From a virus (taxonomy: Duplodnaviria; Heunggongvirae; Uroviricota; Caudoviricetes): a stretch of 24,564 bases of DNA. The stretch is taken from IMG/VR virus record IMGVR_UViG_2740892233_000024, one strand, 5' to 3'. The position numbers were made by a program. Of this stretch, positions 21,001 through 24,000 are shown one piece after another; the first letter of the stretch is position 1; the number at the start of each line of letters is the position of its first letter.

Positions 21001-24000
21001 GTAACAGAAAAATTGCAGGTAAGACACTGGATCGCCTGAAGACGTTAATCTGGCTGGCTGCACAGGATGTGAAGAGCGAACTTGCAGGGCGTGAGGCCTA
21101 TGAATACCAGACACTGGCATCATTGGTGGGAGTGACAACAAAAAACTGGTCCGAGACATTTACTGAACGCTGGGTTGCAATGAAGCACATTTTTCTACAG
21201 CTTGATAGTGATGCTTTATTGCTTGTGACGAGAACACGTTCAAAACAAAAGGCAGCATTTTTACAGCAAAATATTGCAAAACTGGATTAAAAGCCATATA
21301 CTTCATGCAAATTTGGTATGTTGTAAAAAATGTATAAACCCGCTGCCGAGTGGGTTTTTTTTATGCCCTGAGTTGTACTTGTACGGTAAACATGCTGGCT
21401 GCTATGTAATAGAGTTTTTTTAGCCTGTAACCTCTTGACGGCATTGAATTGCTTTTGTTATGAGTTGTAAGCCAATGTTATCATCTTGTATTGGGGTGGT
21501 TATGAAGGATGGTGCGCTGCTCAGGAGTTCTTCACTTTTTATTGCCTACATGGGATGCCTTGGATGGGGGAGTGCTTATTTCTATGGATGGGGTACTTCT
21601 TTTTACTACGGCTTCCCATGGTGGATTGTAGGTGCAGGTGTTGATGATGTTGCCAGAAGTTTATTTTTTGCAGTTATCGTCATTGCTATATTTCTTATCG
21701 GTTGGGGTATTGGTGTTGTATTCTTTTTCGCAGTGAAAAGAAAACATTCTATGCAAGAGCTAAATGTATTTCGCCTTTATTTTGCTGTGGAATTATTGTT
21801 TGTGCCGGCAATTATTGAGTTTTCTATATTGAGACAGAAGATTCAGGTACCTCTTTTGCTACTGTCAGCAGCGATTGCGCTGGCGGTTACAATTTCGATA
21901 AGATCTTATGGGCGATTTTTATCGGTATCATGCTTCTATGATAAGCCATTTATAAAAAAACATTTTTTTGAGATTGTGATGATTGCTTTTGTGGCATATT
22001 TTTGGCTTTTTTCATTTCTGACAGGATATTACAAACCACAGTTTAAGAAAGAATATGAAATGATTAATTATAATGATGGTTGGTATTATGTTCTTGCTCG
22101 TTATGATAATTGTCTGGTTTTGTCTACTTCTTTCAATGCAGGTAGTAAAAGGTTTGTCATTTATCAATCAGCACAAGATAAGAATCTTCAGGTTGATATT
22201 GTAAGGACCAGAATTTAATTGGCTGCATAAATAATATTTTAAGTTGCAAGTTGGCTATTCGTAGGAATAGAACCTTAGGCATGCTGAATGCGTTTTCTGA
22301 ACATTGTTTTATAAACTGTGTCTGCTTGCTGTTGTGATCCTGCTTTTAGTGATGGTGATGATGGATTTCACCAGCAGGATAATGTTGGTACTGACTGATG
22401 GCGCTCTGGTCTGCGGCATTGTGGTATTGCTGTGGCCGATGATGAAAGAACAGAATGAATAATTCTTGACTTTTTTGTTTACTGTTTATTAAAAAATCAA
22501 CCGCATGGTGAATCCTCCTTGGAGGGGCTAAATGATCGAGTTTTAAGGGCACGTAGCGAGTTCTGTTTGATCATTGCAGAACTTAGCGGGAGGCGCCATG
22601 CGTACATCACTAGTGTTATTCCTTTTATCATTTTCCTTGTGAGTTCTGGCTGCGCATTGCGCAGCCTTTTTTTTATGACCTGCCACTGGCAGATGGTCAT
22701 CCTGTGATTTGATTCCGCTTCCGGCTTTTTAACTCTGTTCCTCTANNNNNNNNNNATTTCTGTTTTTCTCAAACTATCATCGTTATCCCTTTATTTTCGG
22801 CTGCGCATGGCGCGGCCTTTTTTTTACGACCAGCCACTGGCAGATGGTCATCCTGTGATTTGATTCCGCTTCCGGCTTTTTAACTCTGTTCCTCTACACG
22901 GGAGAAATTCGATGTCGATTAAACATTACGATGTTGTCAGGGCGGCGTCGCCGTCAGACCTTGCGGAAAAGCTGACACACAAACTGAAAGAGGGCTGGCA
23001 GCCATACGGCGGACCGGTTGCCATTACGCCGTACACACTGATGCAGGCGGTGGCTATTGAAGGAGAGCCACAGGTCGGCCCTTCATCTGAGCCGGATTGG
23101 TACTACGTCATCGTACTGGCCGGGCANNNNNNNNNNTGGGCTGTAGTCCCCGTGTGTCATTCAGGCTTCCGGACTACAGCCCACTCCATATCTGATTTAA
23201 TACACTATCCCGGCCGGGAGGAATAATGACATTTAAACATTATGATGTTGTCAGGGCGGCGTCGCCGTCAGACCTTGCGGAAAAGCTGACACACAANNNN
23301 NNNNNNATCCAATGCCATGGCTTACGGTGAAGGGCTTACGGTGAAGGGCTTCCGCTGCCGGATTCATACGATGCTCCGGATCCGCGCATTAAACAGCTGG
23401 CGCGCCGCAGTACAGTTACGCCGGGCGGGGCTGCCTGCAGATATAACGATATTATTCCGGCTGACCACTGTCTGCATGATGTGCAGGATATGAGTACGCT
23501 GAATCATCCGAGGGCTGACCTGAGCAAAGGGCAGTACGGCTGTGTCGGCCAGGGTTTACATATTGCCAAAAAACTGCTCCCGTATATCCCGAATAACGCG
23601 GGGATCCTGCTGGTACCATNNNNNNNNNNATGTTATTTCCTTCTATCATTTTCCTTGTGAGTTCTGGCTGCGCATGGCGCGGCCTTTTTTTTATGACCTG
23701 CCACTGGCAGATGGTCATCCTGTGATTTGATTCCGGTTCCGGCTTTTTAACTCTGTTCCTGTACACGGGAGAAATTCTATGTCGATTAATCGTTATGATA
23801 TTGGTTACAAGAAGTACCACGTATTGTGTTGAGATAGAAAGCATGGTGCCAGAGGTAAATGCAGCAGCATAATAAAAAAGAGCCAGCGCAGAAGAGAACG
23901 GGTAAAAGAGTCTGCGCTGGCGTGGGGATATTCCCCGTGGAGAAATGATATGTAACACACATCGGGAACCTTTCTATATAAACATTATCATTATTGTCAA

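What the first reader, a model, noticed from the sequence alone, without database searches (positions are those of the whole stretch)
22588..23832. Triplicated module: short ORF end, terminator hairpin, nested palindrome, then the start of a small gene
A ~150 bp unit recurs three times with a few substitutions (about 22610..22745, 22756..22930 and 23630..23832). Each has a GC hairpin GGCTGCGCA-N-TGCGCRGCC followed by T8-9, the palindromic ATGACCTGCCACTGGCAGATGGTCAT, then about 60 nt, an SD and the ATG of an MS(I/F)KHYDVV-type ORF. Copy A is preceded by a 14-codon leucine/phenylalanine-rich ORF with a GGGAGG RBS that ends 5 nt before the hairpin, which has the layout of a leader peptide with an attenuator. 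The triplication may be real tandem repeats or collapsed copies from several prophages.
Basis: seen in the sequence. Interest (0 to 1): 0.55.

Follow-up and report, generated by a model that had tools for sequence, protein, structure and literature searches.

The report
Known prophage sRNA ends, mis-scaffolded
The "triplicated module" is the terminator end of a known prophage small RNA (PasD/STnc100) plus the leader of a sialate-esterase gene, and it appears three times only because short contigs from different prophages were strung together with N-gaps in a draft scaffold.

Summary
The repeat exists as written, but it is not a tandem triplication in a genome. Every junction between copies is a run of 10 N. 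In the complete genome of E. coli E2865 the pieces map to four prophages 0.9 to 3.1 Mb apart. None of 5,426 complete E. coli genomes has this layout. Phage 434 and 119 of 120 IMG/VR loci carry the unit once.

Copy A (22503-22674) is 100% identical to pasD2 of EPEC E2348/69. Copy C (23630-23692) is 100% identical to the 3' end of pasD1. Both are Northern-validated, Hfq-associated sRNAs, 172-173 nt, with seed UGUGAG. Copy B is the 3' end of an STnc100-type relative (RF02076) from a third prophage.

The hairpin plus T8 is the sRNA's intrinsic terminator. The sequence after it is the 5' leader of a 616-aa NanS-p-type sialate esterase gene (DUF1737-SASA-DUF6645). In copy C only a deletion remnant of that gene is left.

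The 14-codon "leader peptide" occurs only in the pasD2 allele. A 1-nt indel frameshifts it in pasD1, and other family members encode unrelated peptides. Its SD and AUG are buried in the sRNA's 5' helix. The attenuator reading is not supported.

Verdict: already known, plus an assembly artefact. Low interest.

The parts
22466..22494 (+). Putative sigma-70 promoter of the sRNA: -35 TTGACT at 22466-71, 17-nt spacer, -10-like TTAAAA at 22489-94
   Evidence: Read from the sequence. It lies 8 nt upstream of the RNA-seq-defined PasD2 5' end. The region is conserved in 121 IMG/VR copies. The strict consensus scan did not call it. Promoter activity is inferred.
22503..22674 (+). Complete pasD2-type sRNA gene, 172 nt (copy A)
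   Evidence: 100% identical to E2348/69 NC_011601.1 741157-741328, including the promoter region. The Northern probe matches with the single mismatch reported for PasD2. STnc100 model RF02076 aligns end to end at 41.4 bits, below the gathering score of 47, E 7e-7. MFE -59.7 kcal/mol, z -2.8.
22598..22642 (+).
   Evidence: Found only in the pasD2 allele, in 18 of 110 sampled family copies. It is frameshifted or unrelated elsewhere. SD and AUG are predicted to be paired.
22638..22643 (+). PasD seed UGUGAG, complementary to the CUCACA motif of RIL-seq targets. Also present in copy C at 23656-23661
   Evidence: Pearl Mizrahi 2021, figure S5 and tables. Coordinates.
22648..22674 (+). Intrinsic terminator of copy A: 8-bp GC hairpin plus T8
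   Evidence: -15.9 kcal/mol. Annotated as a terminator in phage 434. Family variants differ only by changes that keep G-U wobble pairs on the + strand.
22675..22745 (+). Start of the esterase 5' leader, with the imperfect palindrome at 22675-22700. The contig ends at 22745
   Evidence: The palindrome folds at -10.4 kcal/mol, z -2.0. Its variants are not compensated.
22746..22755 (.). N10 scaffold gap between copy A and copy B
22756..22825 (+). 3' end of an STnc100-type sRNA from another prophage (copy B). It has no UGUGAG seed. Hairpin at 22799-22817 plus T8
   Evidence: 99.7% match to E2865 at 1755712, in a prophage ordered Q, tRNA-Ile, tRNA-Arg, TerB, DUF3927, STnc100, esterase. The complete copy there scores 100.8 bits for RF02076.
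22826..23126 (+). Esterase leader (palindrome variant at 22826-51, SD GGGAGA) and the first 71 codons of the esterase gene (ATG at 22912), cut by a gap
   Evidence: DUF1737 at 61.7 bits. The last 230 nt exactly fill the gap between copy A and the 23307 fragment in E2865.
23127..23136 (.). N10 scaffold gap
23137..23296 (+). Alternative esterase upstream region and start (hairpin at 23138-23182, ATG at 23226, MTFKHYDVV) from a third prophage type
   Evidence: 100% match to E2865 at 1490018. That locus has STnc100 (140 bits) and a convergent AgvB (96.5 bits) just upstream.
23297..23306 (.). N10 scaffold gap
23307..23619 (+). Internal esterase fragment that belongs to the same prophage as copy A. 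It carries a 14-bp tandem duplication that shifts the frame
   Evidence: E2865 909549-909861, 230 nt after the end of copy A. The duplication is absent from the intact genes of E2348/69 and phage 434.
23620..23629 (.). N10 scaffold gap
23630..23692 (+). 3' 63 nt of a pasD1-type sRNA (copy C): seed, hairpin at 23666-84, T8
   Evidence: 100% identical to E2348/69 pasD1. The Northern probe matches exactly. The contig starts exactly where pasD1 and pasD2 diverge.
23693..23832 (+). Esterase leader plus a 17-codon remnant ORF (23779-23832, MSINRYDIGYKKYHVLC*) left by an internal deletion of about 1.75 kb in the esterase gene
   Evidence: Window 23631-23803 matches L003 3769-3940, and 23804-23888 matches L003 5695-5781, the 3' end of the esterase gene.

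Best explanation
The unit is the 3' end of a prophage-encoded, Hfq-associated small RNA of the PasD/STnc100 family, followed by the 5' leader and start of a NanS-p-type sialate O-acetylesterase gene. It sits in the late region of lambdoid prophages, in the order Q, pR'/tR', moron genes, DUF3927, sRNA, esterase, holin.

The sRNA is transcribed from its own promoter (TTGACT-N17-TTAAAA). It folds into a long 5' helix and a U-rich 3' domain that carries the seed UGUGAG. It ends at the GC hairpin plus U8, which is both the intrinsic terminator and the usual Hfq-binding 3' module.

Shown by others: PasD1/PasD2 are expressed, detected by Northern blot, and ligated to many mRNAs on Hfq. Inferred here: in a lysogen the terminator also shields the esterase and lysis genes from this promoter, and Q-modified polymerase from pR' reads through it after induction.

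Each prophage has one such unit. The window shows three because a draft assembly broke at the points where paralogous prophage copies diverge. The resulting mini-contigs, which are alternative branches from at least four prophages, were then laid end to end with N10 spacers.
For: Artefact:
- N10 runs lie at 22746, 23127, 23297 and 23620, and there are five more elsewhere in the window.
- In complete genome E2865 the five pieces map to 908803, 1755712, 1490018, 909549 and 3062399(-), at 99.7-100% identity.
- No place in any of 5,426 complete E. coli genomes covers at least 80% of 22230-24564.
- Phage 434 has the unit once, 100% identical to copy A.
- 119 of 120 IMG/VR loci have one copy.
- Contig C starts exactly at the pasD1/pasD2 divergence point, and the last 230 nt of contig B fill the E2865 gap between A and the 23307 fragment.
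- Similar redundant segments abut other N gaps in the window.

Identity:
- Copy A is 100% identical to pasD2 and copy C to the pasD1 3' end. The published probe and seed match.
- The context of Q, LpxR, esterase and holin matches the published PasD synteny.
- STnc100 model hits: 41.4 bits for copy A, and 100.8 and 140.3 bits for the parent loci of copy B and of the 23137 fragment.

Terminator:
- Hairpin energies and the T8 run.
- Across 103 copies the hairpin varies only through changes that keep G-U pairs on the + strand, and T8 is kept in 96 of 103.

Esterase: DUF1737, SASA and DUF6645 domains.
Against: No expression data exist for this strain. The promoter was not called by the strict consensus scan and is inferred from the published RNA 5' end. 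Copy A falls below Rfam's gathering score for STnc100. The biological role of PasD is still undefined in the literature. The palindrome after the terminator has no explanation. One IMG/VR contig (L163) has two family members 3.3 kb apart, although it contains an N and may be another scaffold join. I cannot see the original assembly graph or scaffolding method, so the artefact mechanism is inferred.
Confidence: 0.9

Rival explanations
1. Leader-peptide transcription attenuator. Translation of the 14-codon Leu/Phe-rich ORF, or of any ORF from the conserved AUG that runs up to or through the hairpin, controls formation of the terminator. This would set expression of the downstream esterase and lysis genes, in the manner of trp/leu/phe leaders or pyrBI-type coupling.
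For: The layout is real: GGGAGG, a 4-nt spacer, AUG, and a stop 5 nt before the hairpin. A terminating ribosome would overlap the 5' arm. In every family type some ORF from that AUG reaches or crosses the first terminator. Some STnc100 copies in EDL933 have ribosome-footprint ratios above 1. The phage 434 annotators called a 62-aa ORF here. A weak alternative pairing of the 5' arm with ORF codons is predicted in the nascent RNA.
Against: The peptide is not conserved. It occurs in 18 of 110 copies, is frameshifted by a 1-nt indel in pasD1, and is unrelated in STnc100 types. T-run length polymorphisms shift the downstream frame freely. SD-to-AUG spacing is 4 nt in PasD but 11 nt in STnc100. SD and AUG have 0.0-0.1 unpaired probability. 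The AUG is explained by the GCAUGG/CCAUGC closing helix. Open frames of 14-42 codons are not unusual by chance. No amino-acid operon lies downstream. The RNA is a documented trans-acting Hfq partner.
Confidence: 0.05
2. A genuine tandem triplication in the chromosome, that is, three sRNA-terminator and gene-start units in a row in one prophage.
For: The scaffold places them adjacently. One IMG/VR contig (L163) holds two family members 3.3 kb apart.
Against: Every junction is N10. The pieces belong to different prophages in a near-identical complete genome. 0 of 5,426 complete genomes have the layout. The literature reports pasD copies more than 1.5 Mb apart on average.
Confidence: 0.03
3. The RNA is the Q-dependent late-promoter transcript, a pR'-tR' lambda 6S or StxS analogue, and the hairpin is tR'.
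For: It lies between Q and the lysis genes. Its -35 is TTGACT, as in lambda pR'. Its size of about 172 nt compares with 194 nt for lambda 6S.
Against: A clear homologue of lambda pR' sits immediately after the lambda-type Q in the pasD1 prophages, about 1.2 kb upstream of pasD1. In the window, the Q82-type Q is followed directly by a promoter-like site and a terminator at 21274-21365. Two unrelated Q types precede the same PasD promoter. In other prophages tRNAs and moron genes lie between Q and the sRNA. Tree 2014 places these sRNAs downstream of the moron, not at pR'.
Confidence: 0.04

Closest known systems
PasD1/PasD2 sRNAs of EPEC E2348/69 (Pearl Mizrahi et al. 2021, PMC8550237; Zhu, Shabalina and Storz 2026 preprint, 10.64898/2026.05.13.724894); EHEC homologue EcOnc13
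   Same: Copy A is 100% identical over all 172 nt plus the promoter, and copy C over the 3' 63 nt plus downstream sequence. Seed, terminator and synteny (Q, LpxR, DUF3927, esterase or holin) are the same.
   Different: Nothing at the sequence level. Copy C is only the 3' part of the gene because the contig starts inside it.
STnc100 (Rfam RF02076), a prophage sRNA of Salmonella and E. coli
   Same: Copy B is the 3' end of a bona fide STnc100-type copy. PasD aligns end to end with the model. Promoter, 5' GCAUGGUGAAUCC helix, terminator hairpin and downstream esterase leader are shared.
   Different: Copy A scores 41.4 bits, below the gathering score of 47. The central domain and the seed region differ. 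PasD lacks the CCGGG...CCCGG hairpin.
Convergent sRNA pairs at the moron site downstream of pR' in EHEC prophages (Tree et al. 2014: AgvB, AsxR and forward partners)
   Same: Same position, between the moron CDS and the conserved esterase ORF. The locus that supplied the 23137-23296 fragment has STnc100 followed by a convergent AgvB.
   Different: No AgvB or AsxR homologue follows the PasD-type or copy-B-type terminators in the window.
Lambda 6S RNA and StxS (short transcripts from pR' to tR')
   Same: Constitutive short prophage RNA that ends at an intrinsic terminator upstream of late genes. StxS is also Hfq-binding.
   Different: A different promoter and position. pR'/tR' lie directly after Q, about 1.2 kb upstream.
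Amino-acid operon leader-peptide attenuators (trpL, leuL, pheL) and pyrL
   Same: A short ORF that ends at, or runs through, an intrinsic terminator.
   Different: No conserved peptide or regulatory codons, a sequestered start, no convincing antiterminator, and an unrelated downstream gene.

Membership tests
PasD sRNA (pasD1/pasD2) | Sequence match to the E2348/69 genes, including the published Northern probe site | tested here: met
   Copy A 100% over 172 nt. Copy C 100% over the 63 nt present. The probe CATGCGCAGCCAGAACTCACAAGG matches C exactly and A with 1 mismatch, as published for PasD2.
PasD sRNA (pasD1/pasD2) | Seed UGUGAG upstream of the terminator | tested here: met
   At 22638-43 and 23656-61. 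Absent from copy B.
PasD sRNA (pasD1/pasD2) | Synteny: lambdoid prophage late region with Q and LpxR, next to the esterase or holin | tested here: met
PasD sRNA (pasD1/pasD2) | Expressed RNA of about 172 nt that associates with Hfq | not testable with these tools
   Shown for identical sequences in E2348/69 by Northern blot and RIL-seq. No data for this strain.
STnc100 (RF02076) | Covariance-model score at or above the gathering threshold of 47 bits | tested here: not met
   Copy A scores 41.4 bits. The complete copy from which B derives scores 100.8 bits in E2865. In the window, B is only a 70-nt 3' fragment and gives no hit.
Intrinsic (Rho-independent) terminator | Stable GC-rich hairpin followed directly by a U-run, on the transcribed strand | tested here: met
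   8 bp, -15.2 to -15.9 kcal/mol, T8. Natural variants keep the pairing through G-U wobble only on the + strand. Termination itself was not assayed.
Leader-peptide attenuator | Short ORF conserved among homologues, with regulatory codons | tested here: not met
   The peptide differs completely between alleles and types.
Leader-peptide attenuator | Accessible SD and start codon | tested here: not met
   Predicted unpaired probability 0.0-0.1. This is a prediction only.
Leader-peptide attenuator | Mutually exclusive antiterminator and terminator structures | tested here: inconclusive
   Only a weak alternative pairing of the 5' arm in the nascent RNA. The terminator adds about -11.5 kcal/mol.
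Leader-peptide attenuator | Downstream operon functionally tied to the sensed amino acid | tested here: not met
   Downstream genes are a DUF1737-SASA-DUF6645 esterase and a holin/lysozyme cassette.
Genomic tandem repeat | Uninterrupted sequence across copy junctions, and the same layout in finished genomes | tested here: not met
   N10 at every junction. 0 of 5,426 genomes.
pR'-tR' short late transcript (lambda 6S, StxS) | Promoter immediately downstream of Q and co-varying with Q type | tested here: not met
   The lambda pR' homologue lies directly after Q in L002 and L004. The same PasD promoter follows two different Q types.

The most novel reading that the evidence does not exclude
The PasD/STnc100 unit may be dual-function. 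Besides acting in trans, ribosome loading on the conserved AUG, or Hfq binding at the U-rich 3' domain, could tune readthrough of its terminator. That would set the basal expression of the NanS-p esterase, and leakiness into the lysis cassette, in uninduced lysogens. The post-terminator hairpin (the palindrome here, and an unrelated 12-bp hairpin in the AgvB-type loci) could be a conserved-by-position element of the esterase leader.
Probability: 0.06. Interest if true: 0.45.

Novelty: already known. Interest (0 to 1): 0.1.

Why it matters
The value is mainly cautionary. Runs of N in draft scaffolds can turn paralogous prophage alleles into apparent tandem repeats, and short ORFs inside sRNAs can look like leader peptides. 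Biologically, the window carries pasD2- and pasD1-type alleles and an STnc100-type relative. These are sRNAs of pathogenic E. coli whose targets in RIL-seq include virulence genes (tir, bfpB, cesF, perB) but whose function is still undefined. The observation adds no new element to that picture. The only open point is whether the sRNA terminator and the hairpin after it influence NanS-p esterase expression in lysogens.

Tried and rejected
The pattern was too short. A 27-base gapped pattern on IMG/VR worked.

2. A joint MAFFT and RNAalifold run on PasD plus STnc100 misaligned the central domain, so I do not rely on its covariation counts. The hairpin variant counts and the single-sequence fold are the structural evidence.

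3. The first regex for hairpin and palindrome variants failed and was redone.

4. PasD as the pR' transcript was considered and rejected.

5. AgvB or AsxR on the minus strand after the terminators was looked for and not found in the window.

6. The weak Rfam hits on the hairpins (asX2, SorX, SorY, OmrA-B, suhB) are treated as chance terminator matches.

7. Annotated minus-strand hypothetical ORFs that overlap PasD (WP_012578864.1 and pseudogenes), and the 62-aa + strand ORF annotated in phage 434, have no Pfam match or were not examined. I treat them as probable over-annotation.
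Full report

The repeat is in the sequence. The repeat finder reports a 138-nt family at 22648-22785, 22799-22936 and 23666-23803, with 77-93% identity to the reference copy. An alignment shows near-identity from about 20 nt before the hairpin to the ATG of the downstream ORF.

Each copy has an 8-bp GC hairpin (GGCUGCGC-AUK-GCGCRGCC). The hairpins fold at -15.2 to -15.9 kcal/mol, with z -2.8 to -4.0. Each is followed by exactly eight T.

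The palindrome is intact in copies A and C (-10.4 kcal/mol, z -2.0). In B it carries two uncompensated substitutions. The 14-codon ORF lies at 22598-22642, with GGGAGG four bases upstream and its stop five bases before the hairpin.

It has nine runs of exactly 10 N, and four of them (22746, 23127, 23297, 23620) separate the pieces of this finding. The adjacency of the copies is therefore not observed sequence.

**2. Is the triplication real?**

It is not. I searched each mini-contig against 5,426 complete E. coli genomes. In strain E2865, which matches at 99.7-100%, the pieces map as follows:

| Piece (window) | Position in E2865 |
|---|---|
| Copy A | 908,803 |
| Copy B | 1,755,712 |
| 23137-23296 | 1,490,018 |
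| 23307-23619 | 909,549 (same prophage as A, 230 nt further on) |
| Copy C plus the holin | 3,062,399, opposite strand |

- The whole stretch 22230-24564 is covered at 80% or more by a single place in none of the 5,426 genomes.
- Phage 434, a finished genome of a classical phage isolate, carries a 100% identical copy A region exactly once.
- Of 120 IMG/VR loci retrieved with a promoter and 5'-end pattern, 119 have one copy. The exception, L163, contains an N.
- The published survey of pasD finds copies more than 1.5 Mb apart on average.

The break points are those expected of a short-read assembler. Contig C starts exactly where pasD1 and pasD2 first differ. The last 230 nt of contig B are exactly the sequence that lies between the end of A and the 23307 fragment in E2865. 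The pieces are thus alternative branches that converge on shared sequence and were then laid out in a line. The same redundancy appears beside other N gaps in the window: 1702-2001 resembles 4811-5110, and 2828-2999 resembles 5845-6016.

**3. What is the unit?**

A permissive Rfam scan aligned the STnc100 model (RF02076) end to end to 22473-22677. The match ends at the copy A hairpin and scores 41.4 bits, below the gathering score of 47, with E 7e-7.

A 2026 preprint links STnc100 to the PasD sRNAs of EPEC and gives their synteny: Q and LpxR upstream, then a sialate esterase or the holin downstream. The supplement of Pearl Mizrahi et al. 2021 gives coordinates and the Northern probe.

I fetched both E2348/69 loci and aligned them.
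- Copy A with its promoter region is 100% identical to pasD2, so the 172-nt gene is window 22503-22674.
- Copy C is 100% identical to the last 63 nt of pasD1 and to the sequence after it.
- The probe's reverse complement, CCTTGTGAGTTCTGGCTGCGCATG, is present exactly in C and with one mismatch in A, as published for PasD2.
- The published seed UGUGAG (targets carry CUCACA) is at 22638-43 and 23656-61.

Copy B lacks that seed. In E2865 its parent locus is a full STnc100 copy (100.8 bits) in a prophage ordered Q, tRNA-Ile, tRNA-Arg, TerB, DUF3927, sRNA, esterase. The 23137-23296 fragment comes from a third locus type, where STnc100 (140 bits) is followed by a convergent AgvB (96.5 bits). That is the arrangement Tree et al. 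2014 described downstream of the moron site.

**4. The downstream "small gene".**

The MSIKHYDVV ORF is the start of a 616-aa protein with DUF1737, SASA and DUF6645 domains, the NanS-p type of prophage sialate O-acetylesterase.

In copy C the 17-codon ORF is a remnant. Window 23631-23803 matches the pasD2-esterase junction of E2348/69, and 23804-23888 matches the last 70 nt or so of the esterase gene. This implies an internal deletion of about 1.75 kb.

The internal fragment 23307-23619 has a 14-bp tandem duplication that shifts the frame. The duplication is absent from the intact genes of E2348/69 and phage 434, and the gene is annotated as frameshifted in E2865.

**5. How it most likely works.**

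Shown by others for identical sequences: PasD1/PasD2 are abundant RNAs of about 172 nt, confirmed by Northern blot. RIL-seq recovers them on Hfq ligated to core and virulence mRNAs (aceE, tir, bfpB, cesF, uspA and others). STnc100 copies are transcribed in EDL933, and one was confirmed by Northern blot.

From the sequence:
- A TTGACT-N17-TTAAAA promoter-like site ends 8 nt before the mapped 5' end.
- The RNA folds (-59.7 kcal/mol, z -2.8) into a long 5' helix closed by GCAUGG/CCAUGC, then a U-rich region with the seed, then the terminator.
- Among 103 family copies the hairpin varies only at 3'-arm positions, in ways that keep G-U pairs on the + strand (CGCGGCC 68, CGCAGCC 16, CGUGGCC 13). T8 is kept in 96. 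This fits an RNA-level terminator and Hfq module.

Inferred: the terminator insulates the esterase and lysis genes from this constitutive promoter, and Q-modified polymerase reads through it.

**6. Is the sRNA promoter pR'?**

It is not. In the pasD1 prophages, which have a lambda-type Q, an unmistakable homologue of lambda pR' lies directly after Q, about 1.2 kb upstream of pasD1. In the window, the PF06323-type Q (annotated Q82-like in phage 434) is followed at once by a promoter-like site and a terminator hairpin at 21274-21365. Phage 434 annotates that hairpin as a terminator. The same PasD promoter follows both Q types.

**7. The leader-peptide hypothesis.**

I translated from the conserved AUG in 110 family copies.
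- MRTSLVLFLLSFSL* occurs only in pasD2 alleles (18 copies).
- pasD1 has a 1-nt indel that gives a 36-aa product running through the terminator and palindrome.
- STnc100 types give unrelated peptides of 20-42 aa.
- T-run length changes shift the frame freely.
- The GGGAGG-to-AUG spacing is 4 nt in PasD but 11 nt in STnc100.
- In the predicted ensemble the SD and AUG are almost never unpaired (0.0-0.1).
- Only a weak alternative to the terminator exists.

In its favour, a terminating ribosome would overlap the hairpin's 5' arm, and some STnc100 copies show ribosome-footprint ratios above 1 in EDL933. I therefore keep a small probability for a translation-coupled effect on readthrough.

**8. The palindrome.**

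It is well formed only in PasD-type copies. STnc100-type copies carry uncompensated changes in the left arm and sometimes the right arm. The core GCCACTGGCAGATG is invariant apart from rare single changes, and the distance to the esterase ATG is 58 nt in 94 of 103 copies.

In the AgvB-type loci an unrelated 12-bp hairpin (GGGCTGTAGTCC...GGACTACAGCCC, window 23138-23182) occupies the equivalent place. This may point to a leader hairpin conserved by position. It remains unexplained.

**9. Verdict.**

The finding combines a scaffold artefact with already described elements: the PasD2, PasD1 and STnc100 sRNA 3' ends, their terminators, and the NanS-p esterase leader. Novelty: already known. Interest: low.

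Noticed in passing
window 21274-21365 (+): Directly after the Q82-type Q gene (stop at 21290) there is a promoter-like site (TTGCAA-17-TATACT) and a terminator hairpin AAACCCGCTGCCGAGTGGGTTT plus T8. This looks like the real pR'/tR' pair and would give a short RNA of about 55 nt. It has a weak STnc240 hit (28 bits) and is annotated as a terminator in phage 434. It could be a StxS- or 6S-like byproduct RNA.
   Followed up: partly
window 23872-23961 (-): An Esr41-like sRNA candidate on the minus strand between the esterase remnant and the holin (32.3 bits against a gathering score of 102, E 0.0016). It has its own GC hairpin plus T6 and is convergent with pasD1. It occupies the position where PasA/PasC lie in related prophages.
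   Followed up: partly
window 1702-2001 vs 4811-5110; 2828-2999 vs 5845-6016: Other duplicated segments (91% and 98% identity) lie next to N10 gaps at 3000 and 5834. This is probably the same scaffold redundancy of paralogous prophage alleles in the early-left region.
   Followed up: no
window 23319-23346: A 14-bp tandem duplication (GGCTTACGGTGAAG x2) inside the esterase fragment. It is absent from the intact esterase genes of E2348/69 and phage 434 and present in E2865, where the gene is annotated as frameshifted. The esterase downstream of pasD2 is therefore likely a pseudogene in this lineage.
   Followed up: yes
window 23779-23888: In the pasD1-type locus the esterase gene has an internal deletion of about 1.75 kb, which leaves a 17-codon ORF (MSINRYDIGYKKYHVLC*).
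   Followed up: yes
window 23138-23182 (+): A 12-bp hairpin, GGGCTGTAGTCC...GGACTACAGCCC, upstream of the alternative esterase start. It is the positional counterpart of the palindrome in AgvB-type loci. Its function is unknown.
   Followed up: no
window 7717-7775 (-): Lambda cIII thermoregulator element (RF01804, 88.5 bits, full length).
   Followed up: no
window about 18950-21290; L008 (phage 434): The late-region layout matches phage 434: an N-terminal fragment of a lambda-type Q, an LpxR lipid A deacylase moron on the opposite strand, YlcG, then a complete Q82-like Q. Window 1712-24564 matches phage 434 at 97% identity over 45% of its length.
   Followed up: partly
L163 4347 and 7607 (IMG/VR contig 2675903368_000011): The only retrieved contig with two family members (a pasD2 type and an STnc100 type) 3.26 kb apart. 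A single N sits at 5579 inside the first esterase gene, so this may be another join artefact or a real recombinant.
   Followed up: partly
L002 5931-6329 (-), L001 6314-6555 (-), L008 3557-3745 (+): Public annotations place hypothetical protein genes (WP_012578864.1, pseudogenes, and a 62-aa "putative membrane protein") over the PasD sRNA on either strand. The 62-aa ORF has no Pfam match. These are probably over-annotations of a non-coding RNA gene.
   Followed up: partly
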